A stretch of 24,000 nt of DNA from Anaerosolibacter carboniphilus (GCF_014205875.1 NZ_JACHEN010000022.1:49524-73523); one strand, 5' to 3'. Positions 9,863-24,000 are shown, numbered from the stretch's first letter. A program made the numbers and translations. The notes: a model not told the origin generated them from the sequence alone.

Positions 9863-10387
9863 GTGAGCAACGTAAGAAAAATGGTATTTTTGAGCCTGTT
9901 TATTGCTTTGGAAGTTGTACTTACTCGTTTTCTTTCTGTCCAAACGCCAATTGTGAGAATCGGGTTTACTTTTCTACCCATCGCCATATCATCGATGATG
10001 TTTGGCCCTATTTTCGGAGGGGTAGCCGCTGCATTGGCGGACATCATAGGAATGATGGTTTTTCCATCAGGAGGTGCATACTTCCCTGGATTTACCCTAA
10101 CTGCTTTTCTAAGTGGTGTCATTTATGGTGTGGTGCTGTATAAAAAACCTAAGAATTTAGTTCGCATCAGCATTTCTGCCATCATTGTTTCGATCGTTAT
10201 AAATCTCGGACTGGATACGGTGTGGCTTATGATCCTAACAGGAAAGGGATTCATCGCCCTGTTACCAGCTAGAATTATTAAGTGTTTGGTCATGATTCCT
10301 ATACAGATACCAATGATCCATATTGTTTGGAACTATACGGTAGGTCGTCTGGATTTTAATTATGCTACGAAGGGTGTAAATGCTTAA
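9863..10387 (+). CDS. folT: ECF-transporter substrate-specific (S) component, folate family (FolT-like)
   Basis: Hydrophobic ~175-aa protein. N-terminus ...RKMVFLSLFIALEVVLTRFLS, then GFTFLPIAISSMMFGP and GMMVFPSGGAYFPGFTLTAFLSG, as in FolT. The ORF track start 9836 lacks an RBS, whereas GTG 9863 lies 8 nt after GGGAGG. ATG 9881 is an alternative. Confidence 0.7.
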   Translation: MSNVRKMVFLSLFIALEVVLTRFLSVQTPIVRIGFTFLPIAISSMMFGPIFGGVAAALADIIGMMVFPSGGAYFPGFTLTAFLSGVIYGVVLYKKPKNLVRISISAIIVSIVINLGLDTVWLMILTGKGFIALLPARIIKCLVMIPIQIPMIHIVWNYTVGRLDFNYATKGVNA

Positions 10388-10397
10388 ATAGATTGGG

Positions 10398-10432
10398 AAA
10401 AACCTTGCTGTGATTGGTCAGCAAGGTTTTTT
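10398..10432 (+). terminator. Rho-independent terminator after folT
   Basis: AAAAACCTTGCTG-(8-nt loop)-CAGCAAGGTTTTT followed by a T-run. Confidence 0.8.
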
Positions 10433-10482
10433 ATTGATATATATAATATTTTGAATATTTCAAAAAAACGCCTCTTGATATA

Positions 10483-10511
10483 TTGACATGTTTTGATTGA
10501 TTGAATATAAT
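10483..10511 (+). promoter_or_regulatory. Consensus sigma-70 promoter of the corrinoid protein/fhs/folD/fchA/metF operon
   Basis: TTGACA (10483-10488), exactly 17 nt, TATAAT (10506-10511). It lies ~265 nt upstream of the first start codon. Confidence 0.6.
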
Positions 10512-10782
10512 TAAGCTAAAGTTATAACAGTTAGATACATGTATATACAGGTTTTGTGTGAAGTGTAAATGAATAAAACATGATAGACAAATGAAAATGA
10601 ATGATTCTTAGAACGCTGATTCGAGTTATGCTTATTCCTGTTGATGGAAAACGTTTTTGTGTTTTCTTATATTTGAAATCATAATATGCAGCATATGCTG
10701 ATGGCGTTTCGTAGATATCATAATTCGGATTTTCAAGGATGAGTAGGACATAAAAAATAATGAATAAGGGGGATATGAACGT

Positions 10783-11421
10783 ATGATGGATTTAAGTGCA
10801 TTAAAGCAAGCTGTTGGAGACCTTGATGAAGGGACCGTGCTAGACATGCTAAACAAATTTGTAGCCACAAATCCTGGTGAAGAAGAAGCACAAAAGGTGG
10901 TCAATGCATGTCAGCAGGGAATGGCAGTTGTAGGGGATTTGTTTGACAAGGGTGAGTATTTTGTAGGGGATCTGATTTTTGCAGGGGAGCTTCTTACCAG
11001 TGCCATTGATGTGTTAAAACCAGTCATTGGATCAGGAAGCACAGAAAAGGCAGGAACCATCGTCCTTGGTACAGTACAAGGAGATTTGCATGACATCGGA
11101 AAGAACATTTTCAAAAGCATGGCAGAAGCAGCTGGTTTCGAGGTTCATGACCTTGGCATTGATGTGTCTGTGGATGCTTTCGTAGAAAAGGTAAAGGAAG
11201 TAAAACCACAAATCGTAGGTATGAGCGGTGTTCTAACCCTAGCCATTGATGCCATGAAAAATACAATCGATGAACTGAAGACTGCAGGTGTAAGGGATGA
11301 TATTAAAATTGTTATCGGTGGAAACCCTGTAACGAAAGAAGCCTGTGAGTTGGTAGGGGCCGATGCCTTCACCACCAATGCAGCAGAAGGTATCAAAATA
11401 TGCCAGGGGTGGGTGTGCTAA
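10783..11421 (+). CDS. Cobalamin(corrinoid)-binding protein, MtaC/MtbC/MttC-like (copy 1)
   Basis: 212 aa with an N-terminal helical cap domain, then the B12-binding motif [11 protein letters not shown] (DxHxxG), MSGVLT and the Rossmann-like ...KIVIGG... segment. RBS AAGGGGGA. Confidence 0.85.
10878..11094 (+). repeat. High-identity duplicated segment shared with corrinoid protein copy 2 (partner 23784-24000)
   Basis: By-eye alignment at an offset of 12906 nt gives about 14 mismatches in 217 nt. The first ~95 nt of the two genes are much more diverged. Confidence 0.8.
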
Positions 11422-11422
11422 T

Positions 11423-11510
11423 ATAGCAGATGCGGGATCTTTACAGCAGGAGAGAACGCGGCTGTTTATAGATATATTACCAGCAGCAAATGTTTTATCA
11501 AGAAAAGTTG
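11423..11510 (+). pseudogene. Decayed 5' remnant of a third URO-D-like methyltransferase paralog
   Basis: It translates as [19 protein letters not shown]... versus the N-termini MSDVKKLQQERKQLFEDLF (20366) and MTDVKALQQERVQIFTDLF (22031). ATA replaces the ATG, similarity is lost after ~19 codons, and the fhs RBS and start follow at 11540. Confidence 0.5.
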
Positions 11511-11539
11511 TTCATAATGATCAAAGAAGGGGGATTTTT

Positions 11540-13210
11540 ATGAAGACAGATGTACAAATTGCGCAAGAAGCCAAGATGCTTCCGATCATGGACGTGGCGA
11601 AAAATCTTGGAATTGGGGAAGATGAACTGGAGCTTTATGGCAAATATAAGGCAAAGGTTTCTCTGGATGTATTAAAGAGACTTGAAAACAAACCGAATGG
11701 GAAATTGGTTTTGGTTACGGCAATCAATCCAACGCCAGCAGGAGAGGGAAAGACAACAACGAATGTGGGCCTGTCTATGGGATTAAACAAGATAGGGAAA
11801 AAGACAATTACAGCTTTAAGGGAACCTTCCCTTGGACCATGCTTCGGTGTAAAGGGAGGAGCTGCTGGCGGTGGATATGCCCAAGTTGTGCCCATGGATG
11901 ATATCAATCTCCACTTTACGGGAGACTTCCATGCCATTACCTCAGCCCATAACCTTCTCGCAGCTTTATTAGACAATCACCTCCATCAGGGGAATGAATT
12001 AAATATCGATCCAAAGCGAGTGGTTTGGAGAAGGGTGCTCGACATGAATGATAGAGCTCTAAGGAACTTAGTGCTGGGTCTAGGTGGAAAGGGAGATGGT
12101 TTTGTTAGACAAGGTGGATTTGATATAACGGTTGCATCGGAAATCATGGCCATCCTTTGCCTCGCAGACAGTCTTTCAGATCTAAAGAACCGGCTTTCGA
12201 GGATGGTTGTTGCATATGATAGAGACGGGAAGGCGGTTACAGCGGGAGATTTGGAAGCAACAGGTGCGATGACACTGCTTCTGAAAGACGCCATCAAGCC
12301 AAACTTGGTTCAGACCCTTGAGAATACACCAGCGTTTATCCATGGTGGGCCATTCGCAAACATTGCCCATGGATGCAACTCCGTCATGGCTACAAAGGTG
12401 GCACTAAAGTTAGCTGACTATGTTGTGACAGAAGCAGGATTCGGTGCTGATCTCGGAGCTGAGAAGTTCTTCGACATCAAGTGCAGATTTGCAGGTCTGC
12501 ATCCAGATGCCGCCGTAATCGTAGCTACAGTAAGAGCTCTTAAAATGCATGGTGGTGTTGCGAAGCACGAACTTAGCTTTGAAAATCTTGATGCCCTTGC
12601 CAAGGGATTTGAAAATATCGAAAGGCATATTGAAAATGTTGCCAAGTTTGGTGTGCCAGTGGTGGTTGCAATCAACAAATTTCCAACAGATACAGAAGCA
12701 GAGATTAACCTTTTAAGAGAAAAATGCAGTGTATATGGAGTAGAGGTTGTACTATCTGAAGTATTCACAAAAGGTGGAGAAGGCGGCGTTGACCTTGCCA
12801 AAAAGGTTGTTGAGATTTGTGAGAGCAAAGAAAGCCACTATGCGCCCCTATATGATGTGGAAGGAACAATTCCAGAAAAGATCACAAAAATTGCAACTGA
12901 AATATACAGGGCGGACAGTGTAGAATTTACACCAGAAGCGAAGAAGCAAATTTCAAATATCAAAAAGCTAGGACTTGATAAAATGCCGATTTGTATGGCG
13001 AAGACCCAATACTCATTCTCTGATAATCCATCCCTCCTTGGTGCGCCAACTGGATTTAAAGTAACGGTTAGAGAGGTCAGGGTATCAGCAGGTGCAGGTT
13101 TCCTAGTGGCATTAACTGGAGAAATTATGACGATGCCTGGTCTTCCAAAGGTTCCTGCAGCCAATGGTATGGATATTACAGAGGATGGAGAAATTATCGG
13201 TCTATCATAA
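11540..13210 (+). CDS. fhs: Formate--tetrahydrofolate ligase
   Basis: N-terminus [16 protein letters not shown]..., P-loop-like [34 protein letters not shown] and the C-terminal ...[11 protein letters not shown].. tail. The ORF-track start 11363 is a read-through artefact overlapping the upstream gene. ATG 11540 has RBS AGAAGGGGG. Confidence 0.95.
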
Positions 13211-13292
13211 TCTGTACATAAATAAATATATGATGAGAATTGTTTTAATGTAAAAAAAATAGCATTACGAGAGATTATTGGGGGGAACTGAA

Positions 13293-14162
13293 GTGGGCGT
13301 TAAATTAGATGGTAAACCAGTAGTACAGCACTTGAGGGAAGATATCAAAAAGAGAGTAGCATTGCTTGAAGAGGATGGAAATACACCAACGATGCTCATC
13401 ATTCGTGTGGGTGAACGGGAAGATGATATTTCTTATGAAAAAAGCATACTAAAAAATTGTGAGATTCTTGGCATTCGAAGCTTTGTAAAATGCCTGCCTG
13501 TAGATGTTTCACAAGAAGATCTCATCGCTGTCATTGAGCAGGCCAATACCAATGATGATATTCATGGTATTATGCTTTTCAGGCCGCTGCCGGCGCATCT
13601 TGATTTAGAGGTCATTAGAGATGTTATAAACCCTATGAAAGACATCGACTGTATGAATCCTGTAAATCTACAAAAGGTGTTGGAAACCAATGTGAAGGGA
13701 ATAGCACCTTGTACGCCTAAAGCGGTTGTAGAATTGCTTAAATACTATAACATTCCTTTAGAAGGGGCCAATATCACTATGGTAGGGAGTAGTTTGGTTG
13801 TAGGTAAGCCATTGGGATTACTTCTTATAGAAGAAAAGGCAACGGTGACTTTTTGTCACATATACACAAAAGATGTGGCAGCTTTTACAACGAAAGCAGA
13901 TATTGTCATTGTAGCTATCGGAAAGGCAAAACTGATAAAAGACAACTATTTCAATGAAAATACTGTTGTTATAGATGTAGGGATTAATGTCACAGAGGAC
14001 GGAAAAATCTGTGGAGATGTGGATTATGACTTGGTTTTTGACAAGGTAAAAGCCATCACCCCTACAGTAGGTGGTATAGGAATTATCACCACTACCATAC
14101 TATTAAGTCATGTGGTAGAAGCATGTGAAACGTTCGTGCAGTCATATAGTGTGAATGCATAA
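13293..14162 (+). CDS. folD: Bifunctional methylene-THF dehydrogenase / methenyl-THF cyclohydrolase
   Basis: Motifs: KLDGKPV..., P.L.IIRVGEREDDISYEKS, HGIMLFRPLP, INP.KDIDC, PCTPKAV, VG.S..VGKP, TPTVGGIG. I prefer GTG 13293 (after GGGGGGAA) to the TTG 13278 in the ORF track. Confidence 0.9.
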   Translation: MGVKLDGKPVVQHLREDIKKRVALLEEDGNTPTMLIIRVGEREDDISYEKSILKNCEILGIRSFVKCLPVDVSQEDLIAVIEQANTNDDIHGIMLFRPLPAHLDLEVIRDVINPMKDIDCMNPVNLQKVLETNVKGIAPCTPKAVVELLKYYNIPLEGANITMVGSSLVVGKPLGLLLIEEKATVTFCHIYTKDVAAFTTKADIVIVAIGKAKLIKDNYFNENTVVIDVGINVTEDGKICGDVDYDLVFDKVKAITPTVGGIGIITTTILLSHVVEACETFVQSYSVNA

Positions 14163-14207
14163 AAATATGAATTGCAAAAGTAGATTAGGACGGTAGACGG
14201 AGTCAAA

Positions 14208-14903
14208 ATGGACCATGAGAAGAGAAGGCAGGAAATAGATACTGCCTTCTTTAACGAATTGGGAGGGATACCCTTGCTGGAGAAAAGCTGTGATGATTTT
14301 TTACAAGAACTCTCATCAAAATCTCCTGTACCAGGTGGTGGTGGAGCATCCGCTTATGTGGGCGCCCTGGGGATGGCCTTGGGTAGTATGGTAGGAAACC
14401 TTACCCTGGGGAAAAAGAAATATAAAGATGTGGAAGAAGACATTCATGAATTATTGGGAAAATCCGAAGAGATTATTCTTCAGCTAAAAGATCTTGTTGC
14501 AAGGGATGCTGAAGTATTCTACCCCCTATCCCAAGCATATGGATTACCTCAAAATACAGAAGAAGAAAAAAAAGAGAAGGATGAGAAGCTGCAGCAGGCT
14601 ATCATTGGGGCGACAATAGTTCCACTAGATATTGCTCGCTATTGTTTAAAAGCCATCGATTTACATGGGGAATATGCACAAAAAGGTACACGTATTGCTA
14701 TCAGTGATGTTGGTGTCGGTGTCGCATTTTGCAAGGCGGCGCTGCAGGGGGCGAAACTGAACGTTTTGATCAATACAAAAATGATGAAAGACAGCGTACT
14801 GAAAAATGATATTGAATGTCAGCTGCGTGAAATTGAAAATGAAGGAATAGGGAAAGCTGATCAAATATTACAATATGTTGAAGAATTACTTACAGCAGAA
14901 TAG
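14208..14903 (+). CDS. fchA: Cyclodeaminase/cyclohydrolase family protein (FTCD C-terminal domain; FchA-like methenyl-THF cyclohydrolase)
   Basis: L.ELSSKSPVPGGGGASAYVGALGMALGSMV is the signature N-terminal segment of the formiminotransferase-cyclodeaminase C-domain family. Position after fhs/folD fits. The start is uncertain. Confidence 0.75.
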   Translation: MDHEKRRQEIDTAFFNELGGIPLLEKSCDDFLQELSSKSPVPGGGGASAYVGALGMALGSMVGNLTLGKKKYKDVEEDIHELLGKSEEIILQLKDLVARDAEVFYPLSQAYGLPQNTEEEKKEKDEKLQQAIIGATIVPLDIARYCLKAIDLHGEYAQKGTRIAISDVGVGVAFCKAALQGAKLNVLINTKMMKDSVLKNDIECQLREIENEGIGKADQILQYVEELLTAE

Positions 14904-14955: not shown

Positions 14956-16527
14956 ATGTCAACAAGGAAACTCTCTTTCCGAGAAGCATTGCTCGATCCG
15001 GAACAAATGTCCGTTACGTGGGAATTGGTTCCAGGCAGGGGTGCACGAGAAGAGGCTCAGGAAAGTGTTGCTCAGATGGCTGAACTGGCTGCTAGGGATT
15101 CTAGAATTAACTCCATCACCCTAACGGATAACCCAAGTGGAAAGCCTGCTATACTGCCCTATCCTTTAGCCCTTGAAGCAAAAGAGCTAGGGATTGAAAC
15201 ACTGATACATTTTACCTGTAAAGATAAAAATAGAAATGACATAGAAAGTGAGCTCCATGCCCTTGCCAGATCAGGCCTTCCAAATCTGCTGGTGATGACT
15301 GGAGATTATACGACGGAGGGGTTCGGAGGTCGGCCCAAACCAGTATTTGACCTTGATGCGGTGCAGGCCTTAAGATTTATTAGAAAGATGAATAATGGAT
15401 TTGAAATACCAGCCCATAAAGGCTCTAAAAAGCTTCAAAATACGGATTTCTTTGCCGGTGCAGTCGTGTCTCCTTTTAAATCAAAGGAAGCTGAATTGAT
15501 GGCGCAATATTATAAAATGCATAAAAAGATTGCAGAGGGTGCCCAGTTTATTGTGACTCAATTGGGATATGACGCAAGAAAGTTTGATGAGCTGAAGCGG
15601 TATATGGATTGGTACAACTTAAAAACGCCTTTGGTAGGCAATATATTTGTACTGTCTTTACCTGTAGCGAAGATGATGAATAAAAACCTTATTCCAGGGT
15701 GTGTCGTTACGGATAAGATGGTTGCAGACTTAGAAGCTGAAAAAGCCAAGGGAAATGTAAAGGAACAACAATTATTAAGATCTGCGAAGCTCTATGCCAT
15801 CTTTAAAGGATTAAAATACAATGGAGTAACCATTGCAGGACATGGAATCGGTTATACCGATGTAAAGCATATAATTGAAAAGGGTGAAGAGCTAAGTGCC
15901 AATTGGCTGGATTATGTAGCGGAATTCGATTATCCTCAAGATAATGGATTCTATTTCTTCGAAAAGGATCCTGTGACGGGTTTAAATACCAACAAGATCG
16001 TGGATAGAAGCACAACTGGTGCTAGAGCTAAGTCTACCATGAAAGATGTCATGTTTAGCATGGTGCATCATCTCGCACTGAGTGAAAAAGCGCCCCTTTA
16101 CCCTATGATCAAAAAAATTGCAAAAAAAATAGATAAATCCTCTATGAAAAAACCGTTTACCAAAATGGAGTACTGGTCAAAAAGCATAATGCTTGAATGC
16201 CGCTTCTGTGGAGATTGTGTCATGCATGAACTTGCCTATACCTGCCCAATGTCTCAGTGCGCGAAGCACCAGAGAAACGGAGCCTGTGGCGGTAGTCGTG
16301 ATGGATGGTGTGAGGTCTATCCTGAAAAGCAGAAATGCATCTATGTAACGATGTACGAAAAGTTTAAAAATGCTGGAAAGGAAGGTACCATGAAAGAAGG
16401 TTACATACCTCCTGTGAACTGGGATTTATATAGGACATCCTCCTGGTTAAACTTCTTCGCTGGAAGAGATTATAATTACAGAAAAGATGTGGAAGAACAA
16501 GAAGAAGCTAAGAGTTATGCCGAATAA
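14956..16527 (+). CDS. metF: Methylenetetrahydrofolate reductase fused to a C-terminal Cys-rich MetV-like domain
   Basis: The N-terminal ~300 aa are MTHFR-like (SVTWELVPGRG, HFTCKD.NRN, LLVMTGDY, FIVTQLGYD). The C-terminal segment CRFCGDCVMHELAYTCPMSQCAKHQRNGACGGSRDGWCEV resembles the MTHFR C-terminal/MetV zinc-ribbon-like domain. Confidence 0.8.
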   Translation: MSTRKLSFREALLDPEQMSVTWELVPGRGAREEAQESVAQMAELAARDSRINSITLTDNPSGKPAILPYPLALEAKELGIETLIHFTCKDKNRNDIESELHALARSGLPNLLVMTGDYTTEGFGGRPKPVFDLDAVQALRFIRKMNNGFEIPAHKGSKKLQNTDFFAGAVVSPFKSKEAELMAQYYKMHKKIAEGAQFIVTQLGYDARKFDELKRYMDWYNLKTPLVGNIFVLSLPVAKMMNKNLIPGCVVTDKMVADLEAEKAKGNVKEQQLLRSAKLYAIFKGLKYNGVTIAGHGIGYTDVKHIIEKGEELSANWLDYVAEFDYPQDNGFYFFEKDPVTGLNTNKIVDRSTTGARAKSTMKDVMFSMVHHLALSEKAPLYPMIKKIAKKIDKSSMKKPFTKMEYWSKSIMLECRFCGDCVMHELAYTCPMSQCAKHQRNGACGGSRDGWCEVYPEKQKCIYVTMYEKFKNAGKEGTMKEGYIPPVNWDLYRTSSWLNFFAGRDYNYRKDVEEQEEAKSYAE

Positions 16528-17433: not shown

Positions 17434-17679
17434 TCTATCAACCTTTCATTTTGATAGGATAGACTGTTTAGCGATTTAAGAAGTTCGATCATTCATACTC
17501 TATGAAAATAGATCTCTATAAATGAATGATTCTAGGTTATTGAAGAAATTCCTTTCAATCGATATGCTTAAGGCATTTAATATTTTGAAGTTTAAAATGT
17601 ATACTCTGAATTGAAACAGGCATCCCAAAAAGATAAAATGAAACTAACAAAAAAACAATTAGAAGAAGGGGGATGCAGT

Positions 17680-18500: not shown

Positions 18501-20039
18501 TTGAAGGAATTGCAATTACGGATAAGAGAATTGGAGGAAATGTTAGCGGAACAGATACAGCAAAGCAAAGAATTAAGGTTGGATAACCAACGGCTGGCGG
18601 AAGAGAATAAAGATTTAAGATTCAAAGTGAACCTAATGGATGATATGCTGGACAATATGTATGAAGGCGTCCGTGCTGTTGATTCAGAGGGAAGAGTCAT
18701 TATTTATTCAAAGGCTAACGAAAAATATGATGTATGGAAAAAAGAAGAGGTCATCGGGAAGCATGAAAATGACCTATGGAATCCTCCCATAGGCTTCACC
18801 TTTAACAAACAGCAAATCATCAGATTAAAAAAACCCATAAAAAATGTAAAAATGATTGGCAGTTCAAAGGCTGGGAAACAATTTCATATCATAGCAGGTT
18901 TTTATCCATACTTTGAAGATGGTGAATGTAAAGCCTTCTATTATACGGGGAGAGATATTACCACATTGGATTCATTTATCATGCAAACCTATGAAATTCA
19001 GCGGAACATGACGAAAAAGAACAATGAGAAGAAACGCATGAATGGCTGTAGGTTTACCCTAAATGATATCATAGGCACCAGTGCAGCGATTACGAGCTGT
19101 AAGGATAAAGCGAGAAGGTTTTCGAATTATAATGCCAACATACTCATTTACGGGGAGACGGGAACCGGAAAAGAAATGTTTGCCCAAGGTATTCACAATG
19201 AAAGCTTATACTCCCATGAACCTTTCATTGCATTAAACTGCTCAGCAGTACCTGAATCCCTTATTGAAAGCATATTGTTTGGTACTGTAAAAGGGGCATT
19301 TACAGGGGCTGAAAATATGTCAGGATTATTTGAACAGGTAGGGAAGGGGACTCTTTTTCTAGATGAAATCAATTCCATGCCTTTGGCCATGCAAGCAAAA
19401 CTTCTTCGGGTACTTCAAGAGAAAAAGATTAGAAGGATCGGAGGTGTTAAAGATATCGATGTGGAATGCTGCGTGATTAGTGCAACCAACATGGATCCTA
19501 AGGAAGCAGTGAAAAAATCCATCTTAAGAGAGGATTTCTATTATAGAATATCCACAGTATTGTTGACAATACCACCCCTAAGAGAAAGAAAGGAAGACAT
19601 TGCTCTACTTATTCAGCATTTTATAAAGGAATTAAATAAAAGATTTTCAAAGCATATAAAGAGTATAGATCCAGATGTACTGTCTTCCTTGATGGAGTAT
19701 CACTGGCCTGGAAATGTACGAGAGCTTCTAAACACATTGGAATATGCAGTTATTCTTTGTGAAGACAATCAGACGGTCTTAACCTATGAGCTTTTTCCTA
19801 ATTATATTTATTATAAAAAGAATAGACAGTGTGATTTTGGAGAGGTCAGCATTGGACAGGATAGTTTCATTGAATACAGCAATACGGAGGATTTAAACAC
19901 CCTATTGGATAATTACGAAAAAAATATTATTGTATCCGTCATCAATAAGTCAAGCGGGAACATTTCTACAGCAGCGAAGAAACTAGGTATTGATCGGAAA
20001 TCATTGTATAGAAAGATTGAAAAATATAAGTTGAAATAA
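18501..20039 (+). CDS. Sigma-54-dependent transcriptional activator (bEBP): coiled-coil + PAS sensor, AAA+ domain, Fis-type HTH
   Basis: Walker A GETGTGKE, the sigma-54-contact loop GAFTGA (..VKGAFTGAE..), Walker B LFLDEI, WPGNVREL, and the C-terminal HTH ISTAAKKLGIDRKSLYRKIEKY. The N-terminus is a heptad-like helix followed by a PAS-like region. TTG start after AAGGAG. Confidence 0.9.
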   Translation: MKELQLRIRELEEMLAEQIQQSKELRLDNQRLAEENKDLRFKVNLMDDMLDNMYEGVRAVDSEGRVIIYSKANEKYDVWKKEEVIGKHENDLWNPPIGFTFNKQQIIRLKKPIKNVKMIGSSKAGKQFHIIAGFYPYFEDGECKAFYYTGRDITTLDSFIMQTYEIQRNMTKKNNEKKRMNGCRFTLNDIIGTSAAITSCKDKARRFSNYNANILIYGETGTGKEMFAQGIHNESLYSHEPFIALNCSAVPESLIESILFGTVKGAFTGAENMSGLFEQVGKGTLFLDEINSMPLAMQAKLLRVLQEKKIRRIGGVKDIDVECCVISATNMDPKEAVKKSILREDFYYRISTVLLTIPPLRERKEDIALLIQHFIKELNKRFSKHIKSIDPDVLSSLMEYHWPGNVRELLNTLEYAVILCEDNQTVLTYELFPNYIYYKKNRQCDFGEVSIGQDSFIEYSNTEDLNTLLDNYEKNIIVSVINKSSGNISTAAKKLGIDRKSLYRKIEKYKLK

Positions 20040-20045
20040 TAGGGA

Positions 20046-20070
20046 TGTGTCAGCATGACACATGTGTAAT
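20046..20070. promoter_or_regulatory. Upstream activator sequence (UAS) copy 1
   Basis: TGTGTCAGCATGACACATGTGTAAT. TGTGTCA/TGACACA form a palindrome, overlapping the palindrome CACATGTG. It starts 190 bp upstream of the -24 element at 20236, and the same motif occurs at 21761 and 23405. Confidence 0.65.
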
Positions 20071-20115
20071 CTTGCTACAGAACCATCTGAAATACCAAAT
20101 TGTTTTCTTTTTATC

Positions 20116-20151
20116 AAACAACTGTGTCTTGATGACACAGTTGTTTTTTTT
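20116..20151 (+). terminator. Rho-independent terminator of the bEBP gene; its stem resembles the UAS half-sites
   Basis: AAACAACTGTGTC-TTGAT-GACACAGTTGTTT plus a T-run. The stem core TGTGTC..TGACACA resembles the UAS. Confidence 0.7.
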
Positions 20152-20235
20152 ATTATTTTTTCAAGTGCTAAGAAAGAAAATGCTGAGATATTGGAATATC
20201 AAGGCGAAAGGGGTTTTAATGGAAGATACAATACT

Positions 20236-20251
20236 TGGCATAAATATTGCT
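20236..20251 (+). promoter_or_regulatory. Sigma-54 (-24/-12) promoter 1
   Basis: TGGCAT-AAATA-TTGCT matches TGGCAC-N5-TTGCW, ~115 nt upstream of ATG 20366. Confidence 0.75.
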
Positions 20252-20365
20252 TTTTCCATTCTTAAGCATGACAGAAATGCAAGGACAGCATCAGCAGAAT
20301 AGTGAACAGCGGATGATGATAAAGGATGCATGCATTGCTGTCTAAGTGAAAAGGGGTGTATAGCA

Positions 20366-21733
20366 ATGTCGGATGTAAAGAAACTTCAACAAGAGAGAAA
20401 GCAGTTGTTTGAGGATTTATTTGACGGAAAAATACCAAAAAGGGTGCCCATTCGTGCCAACCTGCCTTTGGAGTTTAGTATTCAGTATGCAGGGCTGCCT
20501 TTGGCTGAAACCCAATGGACATTAGATGGTGTGGAAGAGGCCTTAGACAAAGCGTGTCAAATGTCAAAGTCAGACTATTACCCTTCGGGATTTTCAAGAT
20601 ATCCTGCCCATCTTCAAATACTGGGAGCAAAGGGATTTGTCATGGGTTCCAACGGATTCATTCAGCATCCAGAAATCATCGGTATGGAAGTAGGTGAGTA
20701 TGATGAATTCATTAAAAATCCATATGACTGTATTATGGAAAAAATACTTCCACGACTCTATCCAGAATTGAATACAGATCCGACAACACGTTCCATCGTA
20801 TTTGCAAAAGCTTTTAAAGCATTCTTTGATTATATAGAGGCATATGGAAAAATAGATGCAAAATTAATTGAAAAATATGGATTTCATGTGATTCCTAGAG
20901 AATCCTTCAGTGTAGTAACTGCTCCCTTTGATTTTGTGGCGGATTTCTTAAGAAGCTTCAAGGGAATTGCAATGGATGTAAAAAGATGTCCTGAAAAAAT
21001 ACAAGAGGCATGTGAGGCCATGCTGCCGATTCAAATCAAGAGAGGTATACCGCCTGTACCTTCAAAGTATGGTCATACTTTTATTCCGTTACATATGGGC
21101 AGTTATTTACGAAACAGTGATTTCGAAAAGCTGTATTGGCCCACATTCAGTAAAATGGTTCATGCATTGGCAGACGCAGGACAGCCTTGTCTGATATTCT
21201 GTGAACATGATTGGATGAGATATTTGGATTATCTCTATGAGCTCCCTGAAAATACAAGGCTCTATTTTGAGTTTGGCGATCCAAAGCTTGCAAAAGAAAA
21301 ACTTGGCAAGAAGCATATTATTTCTGGCTTCTATCCTTTGACGTATCTACAGTCAGCTACCAAGCAGCAGTGTATTGACAAGGCAAAAGAGCTTATTGAC
21401 ATTTTAGCTCCTGGTGGGAAATATTTCTTTGAATTTGATAAGAGCCCTGTAAGCTTGGACAGTGTAAATGTAGAAAATTATATGGCAGTACTTCAGTATG
21501 TGGCTGAAAATGCAAAATATGATAACCCAGGAGAAGCGGCAGCATCAGAGGATAAGTCTGCCAATAAACCTAAAACGATTGAAATACCTGAGTTTAAATC
21601 TAATTACTATAAAGCGTGGGAAGAATACAAGGTAGGACATCCTGAAATCGGGCCAAAGATAGAACCAATTATGGCTTCAAAATTACAAAGTTACGAAGAA
21701 ATGATATTTAGAATGATTTTCATGCTAATATAG
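20366..21733 (+). CDS. URO-D/MtaA-superfamily-like corrinoid-dependent methyltransferase, paralog 1, with a C-terminal linker and ~44-aa tail domain
   Basis: Start MSDVKK... after AAAGGGG; the track start 20330 has no RBS. The core is ~60% identical by eye to paralog 2. The ...ILAPGGKYFFEFD... region near the core C-terminus recalls the GPGGG region of URO-D-family methyltransferases. Adjacent corrinoid-protein genes support the role. The family call was not verified by search. Confidence 0.6.
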   Translation: MSDVKKLQQERKQLFEDLFDGKIPKRVPIRANLPLEFSIQYAGLPLAETQWTLDGVEEALDKACQMSKSDYYPSGFSRYPAHLQILGAKGFVMGSNGFIQHPEIIGMEVGEYDEFIKNPYDCIMEKILPRLYPELNTDPTTRSIVFAKAFKAFFDYIEAYGKIDAKLIEKYGFHVIPRESFSVVTAPFDFVADFLRSFKGIAMDVKRCPEKIQEACEAMLPIQIKRGIPPVPSKYGHTFIPLHMGSYLRNSDFEKLYWPTFSKMVHALADAGQPCLIFCEHDWMRYLDYLYELPENTRLYFEFGDPKLAKEKLGKKHIISGFYPLTYLQSATKQQCIDKAKELIDILAPGGKYFFEFDKSPVSLDSVNVENYMAVLQYVAENAKYDNPGEAAASEDKSANKPKTIEIPEFKSNYYKAWEEYKVGHPEIGPKIEPIMASKLQSYEEMIFRMIFMLI

Positions 21734-21760
21734 TGGGGATCATTGGGTGATATTCATTAT

Positions 21761-21794
21761 TGTGAAAATATGACACATGTGTAATTATGTCACA
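21761..21794. promoter_or_regulatory. UAS copy 2
   Basis: TGTGAAAATATGACACATGTGTAAT plus an extra TGTCACA at 21788-21794. It starts 188 bp upstream of the -24 element at 21949. Confidence 0.65.
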
Positions 21795-21826
21795 GTGATC
21801 ATGAAAACATAGTAAACATTTTCTTT

Positions 21827-21870
21827 AGTAAAATAAGGTGTGGTATTTTGCCACGCTTTATTTTACTTTC
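21827..21870 (+). terminator. Rho-independent terminator after methyltransferase paralog 1
   Basis: A 17-bp stem, AGTAAAATAAGGTGTGG / CCACGCTTTATTTTACT (2 G-U pairs), followed by TTC and a T-rich tail. Confidence 0.7.
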
Positions 21871-21948
21871 TAAAATCAATACAGAGCAGGGCGCCATGTA
21901 AACCACGTAATATCAATAGATGAAAAAAATAAACAAATGGGAGATACT

Positions 21949-21964
21949 TGGCATAAGAATTGCT
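21949..21964 (+). promoter_or_regulatory. Sigma-54 (-24/-12) promoter 2
   Basis: TGGCAT-AAGAA-TTGCT, ~70 nt upstream of ATG 22031. Confidence 0.75.
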
Positions 21965-22030
21965 ATTAATTTCTATATAAGTGCGATGTAGGCTGAAGAA
22001 ATAAAAATTTGTCAAGGGTGGGTGAACAAT

Positions 22031-23185
22031 ATGACCGATGTAAAAGCATTACAACAAGAAAGAGTACAGATCTTTACGGATTTATTTGATGGTAAGGTTC
22101 CAAAGAGAGTACCAATCAACTTGCTTTTATCCTTTGAGTTTGCGATTCAGTATGCAGGAAAGGATTTAGCAGAAGCTCAGTGGGATACTTCTACGCTTGA
22201 AGAAGTATTTGATAAAATGTGCAGAGACTTTATTACGGATACGAACCCCGCACTGGCATTTAGATATCCTGTATATTACAAATTGTTAGGGGCTAGGAAT
22301 TTTGTGATGAGCTCCAGTGGTTTTTTACAGCATCCAGAAGTCCATGGGTTTGAAGCTGAAGAATATGATGAGTTTATAGCATCGCCCTATGATTGTATTA
22401 TGGAAAAGATATTGCCAAGGATTTACACAGAATTAAACACAAATCCAGTACAAAGGTCTCTTGTAATGGCAAAGGCTTTTAAGGCATTTTACGATGAAAT
22501 GATCAATGGAGGAATGATTGTTGAAAAACTGAATGATAGATATGGTTTTTCTCCTATAGGAGGCTTTCAAGGAATGTGTGAAGCTCCCTTTGATTTTATG
22601 TCAGATCAATTGAGGGGATTTAAGAATATTACGGGAGATATCAGAAGGATTCCTGATAAGGTAGAAGCAGCTTGTGAAGCAGTTACACCTTTGATGATTA
22701 AAACAGGAATGCCTATAAATCCTTCAAAGTACAGTGCTACTTTCATTCCTCTACATATGGCGCCTTTTATTCGGGATAAAGACTTTGAAAGATTCTATTG
22801 GCCAACCTTCAAGAAAGTAGTAGATGAATTAGCGGCTGTAGGGCAGCCATCCTATCTCTTTGTTGAACATGACTGGATGCGTTACCTTGATTATCTGTAT
22901 GAACTGCCTGAGAATACCAGAATGATGTTTGAGTATGGAGATCCAAAGCTTGTGAAAGAAAAGTTAGGGAAAAAACATATACTAACTGGATTCTATCCAA
23001 TTTCTTTATTGAAGGCAGGTACCAAACAACAATGTATTGATAAAGCGAAGGAGCTTATTGATATCCTTGCACCTGGTGGAAAGTATATGTTCAATTTTGA
23101 TAAGAATATTATTACTGCAGATAGTGTTAATATTGAGAACTTACAAGCGGTATTATCCTATGTGGCTGAAAATGCCAATTATTAA
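22031..23185 (+). CDS. URO-D/MtaA-superfamily-like corrinoid-dependent methyltransferase, paralog 2 (core only)
   Basis: Start MTDVKALQQER... at ATG 22031; the track lists GTG 22022. Blocks identical to paralog 1 include EHDWMRYLDYLYELPENTR, GDPKL.KEKLGKKHI and TKQQCIDKAKELIDILAPGGKY. It ends ...AENANY-TAA. Confidence 0.6.
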   Translation: MTDVKALQQERVQIFTDLFDGKVPKRVPINLLLSFEFAIQYAGKDLAEAQWDTSTLEEVFDKMCRDFITDTNPALAFRYPVYYKLLGARNFVMSSSGFLQHPEVHGFEAEEYDEFIASPYDCIMEKILPRIYTELNTNPVQRSLVMAKAFKAFYDEMINGGMIVEKLNDRYGFSPIGGFQGMCEAPFDFMSDQLRGFKNITGDIRRIPDKVEAACEAVTPLMIKTGMPINPSKYSATFIPLHMAPFIRDKDFERFYWPTFKKVVDELAAVGQPSYLFVEHDWMRYLDYLYELPENTRMMFEYGDPKLVKEKLGKKHILTGFYPISLLKAGTKQQCIDKAKELIDILAPGGKYMFNFDKNIITADSVNIENLQAVLSYVAENANY

Positions 23186-23199
23186 AGGAGGGAATATAG

Positions 23200-23343
23200 A
23201 TGGAAACAAAGTATTATAAAACTTGGGATGAATATATAAAGGAACATCCAGAAATTGATGAGAAACTTATACCTGTTATAGCACCTAAAATACAGAGTTA
23301 TGAAGAAATGATGTTTAGTTTCGTTATGACGCTGCTCATGTAA
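23200..23343 (+). CDS. 47-aa small protein homologous to the C-terminal tail of paralog 1 (not in the ORF track)
   Basis: ATG 23200 lies 8 nt after AAAGGAGGG. The product METKYYKTWDEYIKEHPEIDEKLIPVIAPKIQSYEEMMFSFVMTLLM* aligns with SNYYKAWEEYKVGHPEIGPKIEPIMASKLQSYEEMIFRMIFMLI* (21599-21733), about 22 identities by eye. Confidence 0.7.
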   Translation: METKYYKTWDEYIKEHPEIDEKLIPVIAPKIQSYEEMMFSFVMTLLM

Positions 23344-23404
23344 GGAAAGAAAAAATCTTCCGTAGCAGAGGGGAGAAAGATCAAGGCAGTAAAACAGTTA
23401 CAAG

Positions 23405-23428
23405 TGTGACGTATTGTCACATGTGTAA
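23405..23428. promoter_or_regulatory. UAS copy 3
   Basis: TGTGACGTATTGTCACATGTGTAA(T). TGTGAC..GTCACA form a palindrome. It starts 190 bp upstream of the -24 element at 23595. Confidence 0.65.
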
Positions 23429-23474
23429 TAATGATACAAAAGGGTCAGAACTTAGAAAAGATCTCTATCGTACT

Positions 23475-23508
23475 AAAAAAGCTGTGAAGTCGTGCCACAG
23501 CTTTTTTT
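23475..23508 (+). terminator. Rho-independent terminator after paralog 2 and the small ORF
   Basis: AAAAAAGCTGTG-(9-nt loop)-CACAGCTTTTTTT. Confidence 0.8.
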
Positions 23509-23594
23509 ATTTTCTAAAACAAGAGAATAAAATGAAAAACATCAAACTTTGTAAAATCAAAGGAAATGGGTGAGAGGATGAATTAGGAAATATT

Positions 23595-23610
23595 TGGCAC
23601 AGATATTGCT
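23595..23610 (+). promoter_or_regulatory. Sigma-54 (-24/-12) promoter 3
   Basis: TGGCAC-AGATA-TTGCT, ~80 nt upstream of ATG 23689. Confidence 0.8.
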
Positions 23611-23688
23611 GTTTATTTGTATATACATGTACATGGTGGTTCTAAATGCCGTCAATACGTGAATCTATACAATAAAGGGGGCAGTTTT

Positions 23689-24000
23689 ATGATTGATGTA
23701 AAAGTACTATCACAGATGGTGGGGGATCTGGATGAAGGTGCCGTATTAGACATGCTGAATGAATTTGTGTCTACAAATCCCAGTGAAGAAGAGGCACAAA
23801 AGGTAGTCAATGCATGTCAGCAGGGAATGGCCATTGTAGGGGATTTGTTTGACAAGGGCGAGTATTTTGTAGGGGATCTGATCTTTGCAGGGGAACTTCT
23901 TACCAGCGCTATTGATGTGTTAAAGCCAGTCATTGGGTCAGGAAGCACAGAAAAGGCTGGAACCATCGTCCTTGGTACAGTACAAGGAGATTTACATGAT
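23689..24000 (+). CDS. Cobalamin(corrinoid)-binding protein, copy 2 (5' part; runs off the window)
   Basis: [69 protein letters not shown]...GDLHD is collinear with copy 1. RBS AAAGGGGG. It is open to the window end. Confidence 0.85.
   Translation, partial: MIDVKVLSQMVGDLDEGAVLDMLNEFVSTNPSEEEAQKVVNACQQGMAIVGDLFDKGEYFVGDLIFAGELLTSAIDVLKPVIGSGSTEKAGTIVLGTVQGDLHD

What the first reader, a model, noticed from the sequence alone, without database searches (positions are those of the whole stretch)
9863..24000. Corrinoid methyltransferase system of unknown substrate wired directly to the THF C1 enzymes, with no recognisable MT-II or activating enzyme in view
Seen in sequence: the following genes occupy one 14-kb stretch.
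- FolT
- a corrinoid protein co-operonic with fhs, folD, fchA and metF(V)
- a CooC-type ATPase
- a Cys-rich protein
- a dedicated sigma-54 regulator
- two URO-D-like methyltransferase paralogs
- a second corrinoid protein

Established knowledge: three-component demethylase systems (substrate:corrinoid MT-I, corrinoid protein, methyl-corrinoid:THF MT-II, plus an ATP-dependent reductive activase) feed methyl groups into exactly these THF enzymes in anaerobes such as Acetobacterium, Desulfitobacterium, Moorella and Eubacterium.

Inference:
- The two paralogs could be two MT-I enzymes with different substrates, or an MT-I/MT-II pair.
- I see no pterin-binding MeTr-like gene and no RamA/RACo-type activase in the window.
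- The substrate cannot be read from the sequence.
- The paralogs lack the HxC zinc motif known from MtaA; EHD occupies a conserved block instead.

The physical fusion of a methyl-entry module with the methyl-oxidation/reduction branch under two promoter types (sigma-70 and sigma-54) is the main candidate for an undescribed pathway variant.
Basis: inference. Interest (0 to 1): 0.7.

Follow-up and report, generated by a model that had tools for sequence, protein, structure and literature searches.

The report
Methyl-group uptake island beside folate C1 genes

Summary
The window comes from a 96,857-bp contig of Anaerosolibacter carboniphilus.

The two URO-D-like paralogs are 62% identical to each other. 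Both are MT-I-type enzymes, not an MT-I/MT-II pair. Their closest characterised relatives are MtvB (32%), MtoB (27-28%) and CdmB (25-27%). They fall in a sister clade whose substrate is unknown.

"No MT-II" is a window-edge effect. A pterin-binding MT-II (59% identical to CdmA) is encoded seven genes past the last complete gene, on the same contig. Its sigma-70 promoter/operator region is a copy of the one in front of the CP1-fhs-folD-fchA-metFV operon. I could not locate the activating enzyme in this genome. In Geosporobacter and Tepidanaerobacter-type clusters a RACo-type activase sits inside the island.

Methyl-branch genes next to a multi-MT-I island are already published for Tepidanaerobacter acetatoxydans "cluster II", which contains the same MT-I clade.

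New details:
- A conserved 47-aa partner peptide, either separate or fused to the MT-I.
- Three sigma-54 promoters, each preceded by two TGTG-N9-CACA sites.
- A single-chain MetF-MetV.

Verdict: a new member of a known kind, of modest interest.

The parts
9863..10387 (+). FolT, folate-family ECF transporter S component, followed by a hairpin terminator at 10400-10429
   Evidence: TIGR04518 E 1e-42 and PF12822. Inverted repeat of 11 nt, 100% complementary, followed by a T run.
10444..10552 (+). Sigma-70 promoter (TTGACA-17-TATAAT at 10483-10511) plus a downstream palindromic operator-like element. The whole cassette is duplicated in front of the MT-II gene outside the window.
   Evidence: 12/12 promoter match. 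The region aligns with L108:3170-3283 upstream of the MT-II gene. The -35, the -10 and the GTATATACAG..CTGTATATAC palindrome are shared, with 86 identical positions out of 119 alignment columns.
10783..11421 (+). CP1, corrinoid protein (212 aa, DxHxxG), first gene of the THF operon
   Evidence: PF02607 plus PF02310. 69% identical to CdmC. 92-96% identical to two further CPs of the same contig.
11540..13210 (+). Fhs, formate-tetrahydrofolate ligase
   Evidence: PF01268 E 3e-282; NF010030 959 bits, above its cut-off.
13278..14162 (+). FolD, methylene-THF dehydrogenase/methenyl-THF cyclohydrolase
   Evidence: PF00763 plus PF02882.
14208..14903 (+). FchA-like cyclohydrolase/cyclodeaminase (FTCD_C)
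   Evidence: PF04961 E 5e-66. NF045657 scores 193 bits, below its cut-off of 275.
14956..16527 (+). MetF-MetV single-chain methylene-THF reductase (MTHFR domain plus Cys-rich MetV-type C-terminal domain)
   Evidence: PF02219 (residues 13-263) and PF12225 (residues 397-489). 100% identical to the A. carboniphilus protein P0121.
16594..17433 (-). DUF166 Cys-rich protein of unknown role (a gene caller started it at 17259)
   Evidence: PF02593 E 7e-45. No solved relative. Not found near cooC or MT-I genes in any related locus.
17677..18447 (+). CooC-type P-loop ATPase with a CXC metal motif
   Evidence: Best solved relative is CooC1 (3kje), E 1e-15. 55-68% identical to cooC genes that sit in CODH/ACS clusters.
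18501..20039 (+). PAS / sigma-54 AAA+ / HTH_8 enhancer-binding protein (GAFTGA present)
   Evidence: PF00158 E 2.5e-61, PF25601, PF02954 and PAS. PrdR-like at 410 bits, below its cut-off.
20046..20251 (+). Regulatory cassette 1: TGTG-N9-CACA sites at 20046 and 20123 (the second doubles as a terminator hairpin), then a sigma-54 promoter at 20236-20251
20366..21733 (+). MT1a, an MT-I-type UroD-fold methyltransferase with the 47-aa module fused at its C-terminus (about 21590-21733)
   Evidence: 62% identical to MT1b. MtvB 32%, E 6e-44. AlphaFold pLDDT 85; top folds are UROD, E 4e-9, and MtaA 4ay7. Tail homology to the 47-aa protein.
21761..21964 (+). Regulatory cassette 2: TGTG-N9-CACA sites at 21761 and 21778, then a sigma-54 promoter at 21949-21964
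22031..23185 (+). MT1b, an MT-I-type UroD-fold methyltransferase (384 aa as annotated)
   Evidence: PF01208 E 7e-12. CdmB structure 9rui, E 2e-26. MtvB 33%, E 8e-50.
23200..23343 (+). 47-aa partner protein of the MT-I, with its own Shine-Dalgarno sequence (AAGGAGGG)
   Evidence: Sequence read. Annotated as HNQ80_003448. 26 separate and 11 fused copies next to MT-I genes in related loci. No Pfam family. 27 representative clusters at E <= 1e-3.
23405..23610 (+). Regulatory cassette 3: TGTG-N9-CACA sites at 23405 and 23483 (the second is a terminator-like hairpin followed by a T run), then a perfect sigma-54 promoter TGGCAC-N5-TTGC at 23595
23690..24000 (+). CP2, corrinoid protein, cut by the window end. 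It is the first gene of the next sigma-54 unit.
   Evidence: Translation. 68% identical to CdmC. 89% identical to CP1 and 95% to the CP MBB6217333.

Best explanation
The stretch is the 5' part of a methylotrophy island of Anaerosolibacter carboniphilus. The island works as a canonical corrinoid demethylase system.

Proposed pathway (inferred from homology unless marked otherwise):
1. Substrate-specific MT-I enzymes (MT1a, MT1b and at least two more downstream, seen as genes) take a methyl group from an imported methylated compound. Methoxylated, lignin- or coal-derived compounds are the most likely class. Each MT-I has a 47-aa partner module.
2. The MT-I enzymes pass the methyl group to Co(I) of near-identical corrinoid proteins (CP1, CP2 and two more).
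3. A single pterin-binding MT-II, encoded seven genes past the window's last complete gene (shown), passes the methyl group to tetrahydrofolate.
4. Methyl-THF is oxidised by MetF-MetV, FolD/FchA and Fhs to formate, yielding ATP. Alternatively it is used for acetyl-CoA synthesis if CODH/ACS exists elsewhere in the genome.
5. FolT supplies folate.

Proposed regulation:
- The common trunk (CP1, the THF enzymes and the MT-II) is driven by two copies of one sigma-70 promoter/operator cassette.
- The substrate-specific MT-I/CP units are switched on by the adjacent PAS-sigma-54 activator, acting through paired TGTG-N9-CACA sites upstream of three -24/-12 promoters.

A RACo/RamA-type activase is expected elsewhere in the island but was not seen.
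For: Source and gene order:
- Exact matches and consecutive accessions MBB6217317 to MBB6217345 on one 96,857-bp contig fix the source and the order of genes.

MT-I identity:
- Pfam URO-D.
- CdmB structure, E 2e-26.
- MtvB 32%, MtoB 27-28%, CdmB 25-27%.
- UROD/MtaA fold.
- Clade position, sister to MtvB/MtoB/CdmB.

CP and MT-II:
- CP1 is 69% identical to CdmC.
- The MT-II P0264 lies on the same contig as MBB6217336. It hits PF00809 and is 59% identical to CdmA and 56% to MtqA. It is flanked by a CP, a fused MT-I and an MFS gene on one side and by another CP on the other.

Related clusters carry MT-II, CP, MT-I, the 47-aa gene, a transporter and a RACo activase together:
- Geosporobacter.
- L112.

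Precedent for MT genes beside the methyl branch:
- T. acetatoxydans cluster II, in an organism that grows on syringate (PMC13564433).

Regulation:
- Three sigma-54 promoters sit immediately upstream of MT1a, MT1b and CP2.
- All six TGTG-N9-CACA palindromes of the window lie in these three regions. Shuffles give a mean of 0.26.
- The three upstream regions align as one cassette.
- The promoter region of the CP1 operon aligns with that of the MT-II gene.
Against: - No biochemistry or expression data exist for this clade, so the substrate is unknown.
- The closest characterised enzymes are only 25-33% identical. One of them, CdmB, uses chloromethane rather than methoxy compounds (PMC13222342).
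- The activase of this genome was not located.
- The CP1-fhs-folD-fchA-metFV arrangement is not conserved in the nearest relatives I could inspect. MetF-MetV is a stand-alone gene in G. ferrireducens and Alkalibaculum. None of 20 genome loci with this MT-I clade had fhs, folD or metF within 10 kb.
- Operon structure, promoter use and binding of the activator to the palindromes are inferred from sequence only.
- The roles of the CooC-type ATPase and DUF166 are unexplained.
Confidence: 0.8

Rival explanations
1. One reading: a new pathway variant that works without a pterin-binding MT-II and without a RamA/RACo activase. One URO-D paralog would serve as MT-II, or the corrinoid protein would hand the methyl group directly to the THF enzymes.
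For: No MT-II or activase is encoded in any frame of the window. CP1 is the first gene of the THF operon.
Against: - A canonical MT-II lies on the same contig seven genes downstream, behind a copy of the CP1-operon promoter.
- The two paralogs are 62% identical and sit in one MT-I clade.
- Every complete related cluster pairs this clade with a PF00809 MT-II and a RACo activase.
Confidence: 0.04
2. Adjacency without functional coupling. The fhs-folD-fchA-metFV-cooC block would be a housekeeping or Wood-Ljungdahl-type C1 cluster (or its remnant). The methyltransferase island would simply have been inserted next to it, or into it.
For: - The CooC-type ATPase is 55-68% identical to cooC genes embedded in acsA-cooC-fhs-fchA-folD-metV-metF-lpdA-cooC-acsDCEB clusters.
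- The linkage is absent in Geosporobacter, Alkalibaculum and 20 other loci.
Against: - A corrinoid protein of the methyltransferase type, 69% identical to CdmC, heads the THF operon.
- Its promoter/operator cassette is duplicated in front of the MT-II gene.
- An independent lineage shows MT-II directly followed by fhs-fchA-folD-metV-metF (PMC13564433).
Confidence: 0.12
3. The system is canonical, but the MT-I enzymes do not act on methoxylated aromatics. They would act on another methyl or alkyl donor, such as halomethanes (as CdmB does), methylated thiols, or non-aromatic methyl ethers or esters.
For: - CdmB, a relative at 25-27% identity, is specific for haloalkanes and inactive on methoxylated aromatics (PMC13222342).
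- The clade is marked as of unknown substrate in that paper's data set, where the A. dehalogenans paralogs are 39-50% identical to MT1a and MT1b.
- In T. acetatoxydans, three or four of the six MT-I enzymes remain unassigned.
Against: - The nearest characterised enzyme is the vanillate/guaiacol enzyme MtvB.
- MFS or SSF transporters sit next to clade members, which fits imported organic acids better than gases.
- T. acetatoxydans, which carries the clade, grows on syringate.
Confidence: 0.3

Closest known systems
Tepidanaerobacter acetatoxydans 'cluster II' (PMC13564433, 2026): a second methyl-branch gene set adjoining six MT-I, four corrinoid protein and one MT-II genes
   Same: - Methyl-branch genes (fhs, fchA, folD, metV/metF) sit directly next to a multi-MT-I, multi-CP, single-MT-II island with transporters.
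- Locus L112 carries an MT-II identical to that of T. acetatoxydans. It holds two fused MT-I genes of the window's clade (63% and 45% identical to MT1a, tail included), an Fhs 63% identical to the window's, and a CdmA-like MT-II.
   Different: - There the MT-II heads fhs-fchA-folD-metV-metF. Here a corrinoid protein heads fhs-folD-fchA-metFV, and the MT-II is separate, behind a duplicated promoter.
- There MetV and MetF are separate proteins and are followed by LpdA and GcvH. Here they form one chain.
- Here there are a sigma-54 activator with three sigma-54 promoters, a CooC-type ATPase, DUF166 and FolT.
MtvB/MtvC/MtvA of Moorella thermoacetica and MtoB/C/A/D of Methermicoccus and Archaeoglobus (O-demethylases of methoxylated aromatics)
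   Same: - A zinc-motif-free, UroD-fold MT-I of about 385-410 aa with the N-terminal ...ER...PxRVP... signature.
- A cognate DxHxxG corrinoid protein.
- For Mtv, a pterin-binding MT-II.
- Identity to MtvB 32-33% (E to 8e-50) and to MtoB 27-28%.
   Different: - The window's enzymes form a separate sister clade.
- They carry a 47-aa extra module that MtvB, MtoB and CdmB lack.
- MtoA is a different type of MT-II.
CdmBCA chloromethane system of Acetobacterium dehalogenans (PMC13222342; PDB 9rui)
   Same: - CdmB is the only solved structure that the paralogs hit by sequence (E 2e-26).
- CP1 is 69% identical to CdmC, and the genome's MT-II is 59% identical to CdmA.
- In both systems the MT-I, CP and MT-II genes cluster, while in A. 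dehalogenans the activase gene lies outside the cdm cluster.
   Different: - MT1a and MT1b are only 25-27% identical to CdmB.
- The residues lining CdmB's hydrophobic channel are poorly conserved even among its close homologues.
- Nothing here supports a haloalkane substrate.
Uncharacterised A. dehalogenans paralogs WP_026394100, WP_035355258 and WP_026393920 (listed as CdmB paralogs in PMC13222342, Supplementary Data 3)
   Same: Same clade, at 39-50% identity to MT1a and MT1b (61% for the downstream 454-aa paralog). The longer members continue past the barrel with the same ...YxNPGE... linker.
   Different: No substrate or expression data could be linked to them.

Membership tests
UroD-superfamily substrate:corrinoid methyltransferase (MT-I of the MtvB/MtoB/CdmB type) | UroD-like TIM-barrel fold | tested here: met
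   MT1b hits PF01208 at E 7e-12, above the gathering score. The AlphaFold model of MT1a has pLDDT 85 and pTM 0.86. Foldseek top hits are human UROD (E 4e-9) and MtaA 4ay7. MT1a itself hits no Pfam model.
UroD-superfamily substrate:corrinoid methyltransferase (MT-I of the MtvB/MtoB/CdmB type) | Significant full-length similarity to biochemically characterised MT-I enzymes | tested here: met
   MtvB 32-33% (E 6e-44 and 8e-50), MtoB1 of A. fulgidus 27-28% (E 1e-37), CdmB 25-27%. CdmB chain 9rui_A, E 2e-26.
UroD-superfamily substrate:corrinoid methyltransferase (MT-I of the MtvB/MtoB/CdmB type) | Falls inside the clade of characterised MtvB/MtoB/CdmB enzymes | tested here: not met
   In a neighbour-joining tree, the window's enzymes group with uncharacterised A. 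dehalogenans paralogs as a sister clade to MtvB, MtoB and CdmB. This is a distance tree without support values.
UroD-superfamily substrate:corrinoid methyltransferase (MT-I of the MtvB/MtoB/CdmB type) | No MtaA-type zinc site (HxC...C), as in the zinc-free MtvB and CdmB | tested here: met
   There is no HxC motif. In 41 clade members the invariant residues of the block are E280 and D288, with D282 and W283 nearly invariant. The metal content itself cannot be tested here.
UroD-superfamily substrate:corrinoid methyltransferase (MT-I of the MtvB/MtoB/CdmB type) | Catalyses methyl transfer from a substrate to Co(I) of a corrinoid protein | not testable with these tools
   This needs a UV-vis assay with purified MT-I, corrinoid protein and activase.
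Four-component corrinoid demethylase system (MT-I, CP, MT-II, activase) | Cognate corrinoid protein with DxHxxG encoded next to the MT-I | tested here: met
   CP2 lies directly downstream and CP1 upstream. The CP / MT-I / 47-aa unit recurs in most of the 20 related genome loci.
Four-component corrinoid demethylase system (MT-I, CP, MT-II, activase) | Methyl-corrinoid:THF methyltransferase (pterin-binding MT-II) encoded with the system | tested here: met
   Absent from the window but present on the same contig. P0264 = MBB6217336, PF00809 E 2e-18, 59% identical to CdmA. It lies seven genes after MBB6217329.
Four-component corrinoid demethylase system (MT-I, CP, MT-II, activase) | ATP-dependent reductive activase (RACo/RamA, PF14574) | tested here: inconclusive
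   Not in the window. It is present inside the homologous islands of G. subterraneus, G. ferrireducens and L112.
CooC/AcsF nickel-insertion ATPase | MinD-type P-loop plus CXC metal motif, and similarity to CooC1 | tested here: met
   GKGGTGKTS and GCYC motifs in the sequence. 3kje E 1e-15. 55-68% identical to cooC genes of CODH/ACS clusters.
CooC/AcsF nickel-insertion ATPase | A CODH or ACS client encoded nearby | tested here: not met
   No CODH/ACS gene lies in the 24-kb window. Whether the genome has one elsewhere was not tested.
MetVF-type methylene-THF reductase | MTHFR (MetF) domain plus Cys-rich MetV domain | tested here: met
   PF02219 (62 bits) and PF12225 (90 bits), here in one 523-aa chain with MetF N-terminal to MetV. 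The family has more than 2,800 homologues with the same two domains.
Sigma-54 enhancer-binding-protein regulon | Activator with a GAFTGA AAA+ domain, plus -24/-12 promoters with upstream activator sites | tested here: met
   PF00158 E 2.5e-61. Three promoters. Six TGTG-N9-CACA palindromes confined to the three upstream regions, against 0.26 expected. Binding itself was not tested.

The most novel reading that the evidence does not exclude
The MT-I clade with its obligatory 47-aa partner would be a new functional class of corrinoid methyltransferase. It would act on a substrate type not yet known for this superfamily. In A. carboniphilus the class would be coupled to respiratory oxidation of methyl groups (for example with Fe(III)) through a dedicated single-chain MetF-MetV. 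The CooC-type ATPase and DUF166 would play a so far unknown maturation or electron-transfer role in that branch.
Probability: 0.1. Interest if true: 0.65.

Novelty: new member of a known kind. Interest (0 to 1): 0.3.

Why it matters
The finding shows that a seemingly incomplete demethylase system is complete once the window edge is crossed.

It also gives testable handles on a widespread but uncharacterised MT-I clade, found in Geosporobacter, Clostridium formicaceticum, Thermincola, Desulfosporosinus, Acetobacterium, Tepidanaerobacter and others:
- a conserved 47-aa partner peptide that annotation pipelines leave as "hypothetical" or miss;
- an explicit sigma-54 regulatory cassette;
- a shared promoter linking the MT-II to the methyl-oxidation enzymes.

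If the substrates are lignin- or coal-derived methoxy compounds, the island would help explain how an iron reducer described from coal-contaminated soil (isolation source from my own knowledge) obtains C1 units.

Tried and rejected
- **Downstream DNA.** The NCBI record of the source genome could not be fetched. Look-ups of P0114 and P0025 returned nothing. The Logan contigs of run SRR12223496 break at the near-identical CP genes (L001, L107, L108). I therefore rebuilt the gene order from consecutive protein accessions and from the ends of contig L108.
- **Riboswitch or leader RNA before FolT or CP1.** Rfam found nothing at the gathering score and nothing credible at E <= 1. The 265-nt CP1 leader folds no better than shuffled sequence, z = 0.76. 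Rejected.
- **CooC-type ATPase or DUF166 as an alternative corrinoid activase.** Neither gene accompanies this MT-I clade in 20 genome loci, in Geosporobacter or in L112. The CooC relatives sit in CODH/ACS clusters. Rejected as unsupported.
- **MT1b plus the 47-aa ORF as a frameshifted pseudogene of a long form.** Rejected. The small ORF has its own Shine-Dalgarno sequence, and the split form is the commoner state, with 26 separate against 11 fused copies.
- **Expression data for the A. dehalogenans paralogs of the clade.** I searched the supplements of PMC13222342 by accession and found only the sequence table.
- **Substrate clues from the Formimonas warabiya proteomics paper and the arsenic-demethylation preprint.** Neither says anything about this clade.
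- **Conservation of the CP1-fhs linkage through MetF-MetV homologues.** In G. ferrireducens and Alkalibaculum the gene stands alone.

Full report
**Observation**

| Gene | Coordinates | Evidence |
|---|---|---|
| FolT | 9863-10387 | TIGR04518, E 1e-42 |
| CP1, a 212-aa corrinoid protein | 10783-11421 | B12-binding_2 plus B12-binding, DxHxxG motif |
| Fhs | 11540-13210 | |
| FolD | 13278-14162 | |
| FchA-like | 14208-14903 | FTCD_C |
| MetF-MetV, one 523-aa chain | 14956-16527 | PF02219 plus PF12225 |
| DUF166, Cys-rich | 16594-17433, minus strand | |
| CooC-type ATPase | 17677-18447 | Walker A and GCYC motifs; best solved relative CooC1 3kje, E 1e-15 |
| PAS/sigma-54/HTH_8 activator | 18501-20039 | |
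| MT1a | 20366-21733 | |
| MT1b | 22031-23185 | |
| CP2, cut by the window end | 23690-24000 | |

A six-frame search with reference MT-II proteins (CdmA, MtvA, MtqA, MtoA, AcsE) and a reference activase found nothing in the window. The reported absence is therefore real within these 24 kb.

**Source**

MetF-MetV is 100% identical to a protein of Anaerosolibacter carboniphilus on a 96,857-bp contig. Exact look-ups give consecutive NCBI accessions:

- MBB6217317: DUF6951
- 319: CP1
- 323: MetF-MetV
- 327: MT1a (HNQ80_003446)
- 328: MT1b
- 329: a 47-aa protein (HNQ80_003448)
- 333 and 337: two more corrinoid proteins, 92% and 96% identical to CP1
- 345: another MT-I (HNQ80_003464)

**What the paralogs are**

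MT1b hits Pfam URO-D (E 7e-12). MT1a hits no Pfam model, even at E 10. The two are nevertheless 62% identical.

The only solved structure they match by sequence is CdmB of Acetobacterium dehalogenans (9rui, E 2e-26). CdmB is the chloromethane:corrinoid MT-I described in PMC13222342.

I took the reference sequences from that paper's Supplementary Data 3 and compared them with MT1a and MT1b:

| Reference | Identity to MT1a/MT1b | Note |
|---|---|---|
| MtvB | 32-33% | E down to 8e-50 |
| MtoB1 of A. fulgidus | 27-28% | |
| CdmB | 25-27% | |
| OdmB, VdmB, CmuA, MecE, MecC | not significantly similar | |
| A. dehalogenans WP_026394100 | 50% | uncharacterised |
| A. dehalogenans WP_035355258 | 44-48% | uncharacterised |
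| A. dehalogenans WP_026393920 | 39-40% | uncharacterised |

In a distance tree, the window's enzymes and their homologues from Geosporobacter, C. formicaceticum, Alkaliphilus, Thermincola and Oxobacter group with these A. dehalogenans paralogs. Together they form a sister clade to MtvB/MtoB/CdmB.

An AlphaFold model of MT1a (pLDDT 85) matches uroporphyrinogen decarboxylases (E 4e-9) and MtaA. The CdmB paper reports the same closest fold for CdmB.

Both paralogs are therefore MT-I-type enzymes of one clade, not an MT-I/MT-II pair. They have no HxC zinc motif. MtvB and CdmB are likewise zinc-free.

**The missing MT-II**

In related genomes this clade sits in complete systems.

- In G. subterraneus and G. 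ferrireducens the order is DUF1638, a pterin-binding MT-II (269 aa), a CP, an MT-I, a 47-aa gene and a transporter. This is followed by a further CP / MT-I / 47-aa unit, a 231-aa B12 protein, GntR and a RACo-type activase.
- An ENA contig shows the same core.

Searching with the Geosporobacter MT-II returned an 87%-identical protein of A. carboniphilus on the same 96,857-bp contig (P0264). Its accession is MBB6217336, seven genes after the 47-aa gene.

The Logan contig that carries it (L108) has this order:

1. It starts with the C-terminus of CP MBB6217333.
2. It then encodes a 454-aa fused MT-I.
3. An MFS_2 transporter follows.
4. The MT-II follows.
5. It ends in the N-terminus of CP MBB6217337.

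This MT-II is 59% identical to CdmA, 56% to MtqA and 41% to MtvA, and it hits PF00809. "No MT-II in view" is therefore a window-edge effect.

**The link to the THF enzymes**

CP1, fhs, folD, fchA and metFV lie on one strand with gaps of 45-118 nt. No terminator is predicted between them, and they follow a perfect TTGACA-17-TATAAT promoter at 10483-10511.

The roughly 110 nt around this promoter align with the region upstream of the MT-II gene in L108. The shared features are the -35 (TTGACATG), the -10 (ATATAAT) and a palindrome, GTATATACAG..CTGTATATAC. This argues that the substrate-independent parts (a CP, the MT-II and the methyl-THF oxidation enzymes) form one sigma-70 regulon. That step is inference.

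The linkage itself is not general.

- None of 20 genome loci with this MT-I clade has fhs, folD or metF within 10 kb.
- The MetF-MetV homologues of G. ferrireducens and Alkalibaculum are stand-alone genes.

The linkage is also not new. The T. acetatoxydans paper describes a "cluster II" with a second copy of the methyl-branch genes in direct proximity to six MT-I, four CoP and one MT-II genes, and it reports growth on syringate (PMC13564433).

Locus L112 carries an MT-II identical to that organism's. Its gene order is:

- MT-I, MFS
- two fused MT-I genes of the window's clade (45% and 63% identical to MT1a, tail included)
- a RACo activase, a CP and an MtoB-like MT-I
- the MT-II, directly followed by fhs-fchA-folD-metV-metF-lpdA-gcvH

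**Regulation of the MT-I units**

Three -24/-12 promoters lie 73-130 nt upstream of MT1a, MT1b and CP2:

- TGGCAT-N5-TTGC at 20236
- TGGCAT-N5-TTGC at 21949
- TGGCAC-N5-TTGC, a perfect match, at 23595

The three upstream regions align as one cassette. All six TGTG-N9-CACA palindromes of the window lie in these regions, two per region, where shuffles give a mean of 0.26. In two of the cassettes the second palindrome also forms the terminator hairpin of the preceding gene. With the PAS-sigma-54 activator encoded immediately upstream, these sites are the likely enhancer sites. Binding was not tested.

**A conserved 47-aa partner**

Right after MT1b, with its own Shine-Dalgarno sequence, lies a 47-aa ORF at 23200-23343. 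It is homologous to the C-terminal tail of MT1a.

The same module follows, or is fused to, clade members in nearly all related loci. I counted 26 separate and 11 fused occurrences, some from overlapping loci. The conserved motif is YYKTWxEY...Q.YEE..F.F.M.L.

It has no Pfam family. Only 27 representative clusters reach E <= 1e-3 among 1.84 billion proteins. The fusion/fission pattern implies that it binds the MT-I. Its role is unknown. In the MT1a model the tail forms three short helices of moderate confidence.

**CooC and DUF166**

The CooC-type ATPase is 55-68% identical to cooC genes of metagenomic loci. In the loci I inspected, these cooC genes lie in or beside Wood-Ljungdahl or CODH/ACS gene sets:

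- L030: acsA-cooC-fhs-fchA-folD-metV-metF-lpdA-cooC-acsD-acsC-acsE-acsB.
- L056: the cooC gene is followed by a RACo-type gene.

No CODH/ACS gene is in the window, and neither cooC nor DUF166 accompanies this MT-I clade elsewhere. Their role here is unexplained. One lead I could not test is that the methyltransferase island was inserted into a Wood-Ljungdahl-type cluster.

**Verdict**

This is a canonical corrinoid demethylase island with an uncharacterised MT-I clade, placed next to its methyl-oxidation genes.

- The MT-II is present just outside the window.
- The activase was not seen, but it is present in the three related islands where I could look (G. subterraneus, G. ferrireducens and L112).
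- The overall architecture has a published precedent.

The substrate remains unknown. Methoxylated compounds are the best guess, based on MtvB being the nearest characterised enzyme, on the neighbouring transporters, and on syringate growth of T. acetatoxydans. CdmB shows that relatives can have quite different substrates.

I rate the novelty as a new member of a known kind, and the interest at about 0.3.

Noticed in passing
window 23200-23343 and 21590-21733; also L002, L003-L022, L023, L025, L108, L112: A 47-aa protein with its own ribosome-binding site follows MT1b and is homologous to the C-terminal tail of MT1a. The module is either separate or fused in nearly every member of this MT-I clade. 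It has no Pfam family.
   Followed up: yes
window 20046-20251, 21761-21964, 23405-23610: A repeated regulatory cassette with two TGTG-N9-CACA palindromes followed by a sigma-54 -24/-12 promoter. All six palindromes of the window lie in these three regions. In two cassettes the second palindrome also forms the terminator hairpin of the preceding gene.
   Followed up: yes
window 10444-10552 and L108:3170-3283: The sigma-70 promoter of the CP1-fhs operon and the promoter of the MT-II gene (outside the window) are copies of one cassette. They share the -35, the -10 and a downstream palindrome, GTATATACAG..CTGTATATAC, which is probably a shared operator. The CP1 copy carries an extra stretch of about 165 nt in its leader, with no RNA-family match and no structure signal.
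   Followed up: partly
window 14956-16527: MetF and MetV are fused in one 523-aa chain, with MetF N-terminal. The family is large (more than 2,800 hits, including Sporomusa, Desulfitobacterium, Desulfosporosinus and Thermincola). The gene stands alone in G. ferrireducens and Alkalibaculum. I found no paper describing this fused type.
   Followed up: partly
window 17677-18447: The CooC-type ATPase is 55-68% identical to cooC genes that sit in CODH/ACS clusters, yet here it is followed by the sigma-54 activator and not by acs genes. The methyltransferase island may have been inserted into a Wood-Ljungdahl-type cluster.
   Followed up: partly
window 16594-17433 (minus strand): A DUF166 protein with an N-terminal CxxCxxxCxxC motif lies convergent with metFV. 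One gene caller starts it at 17259, which drops the Cys motif. It has no solved relative and is not linked to cooC or MT-I genes elsewhere.
   Followed up: partly
window 10783-11421 and 23690-24000; proteins P0253 and P0254: At least four corrinoid-protein paralogs on the contig are 89-96% identical to one another, while their MT-I partners are only 50-62% identical. These repeats break the short-read Logan assembly at each CP gene (L001, L107, L108).
   Followed up: partly
window 20366-21733 and L108:81-1445: The long (fused) MT-I forms escape the Pfam URO-D model completely (no hit at E 10 for MT1a and at E 1 for the L108 paralog). Domain-based annotation therefore misses them, and they were on record with no Pfam domain.
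   Followed up: yes
window 20045-20302: An 85-aa ORF called as a gene in the Logan record overlaps the terminator, the palindromes and the sigma-54 promoter upstream of MT1a. It is probably not a gene.
   Followed up: no
window 655-739: Match to the Rfam family Clostridiales-2 RNA (RF02937, 64.7 bits, E 1e-13), upstream of the 476-aa ORF at 845-2275.
   Followed up: no
window 2310-9048: A 639-aa ORF, three PTS-like ORFs, two further ORFs of 356 and 398 aa and an HPr-like ORF, all on the plus strand. These labels come from reading the translations only, not from a profile search. The cluster looks unrelated to the methyltransferase island.
   Followed up: no
window 9336-9653 (minus strand) and 207-575: The DUF6951 protein (E 7e-37) is named "cell wall assembly regulator SMI1" in the NCBI record, which looks like a misannotation. 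A small dinitrogenase FeMo-cofactor-binding-family protein (PF02579) lies at the window start.
   Followed up: no
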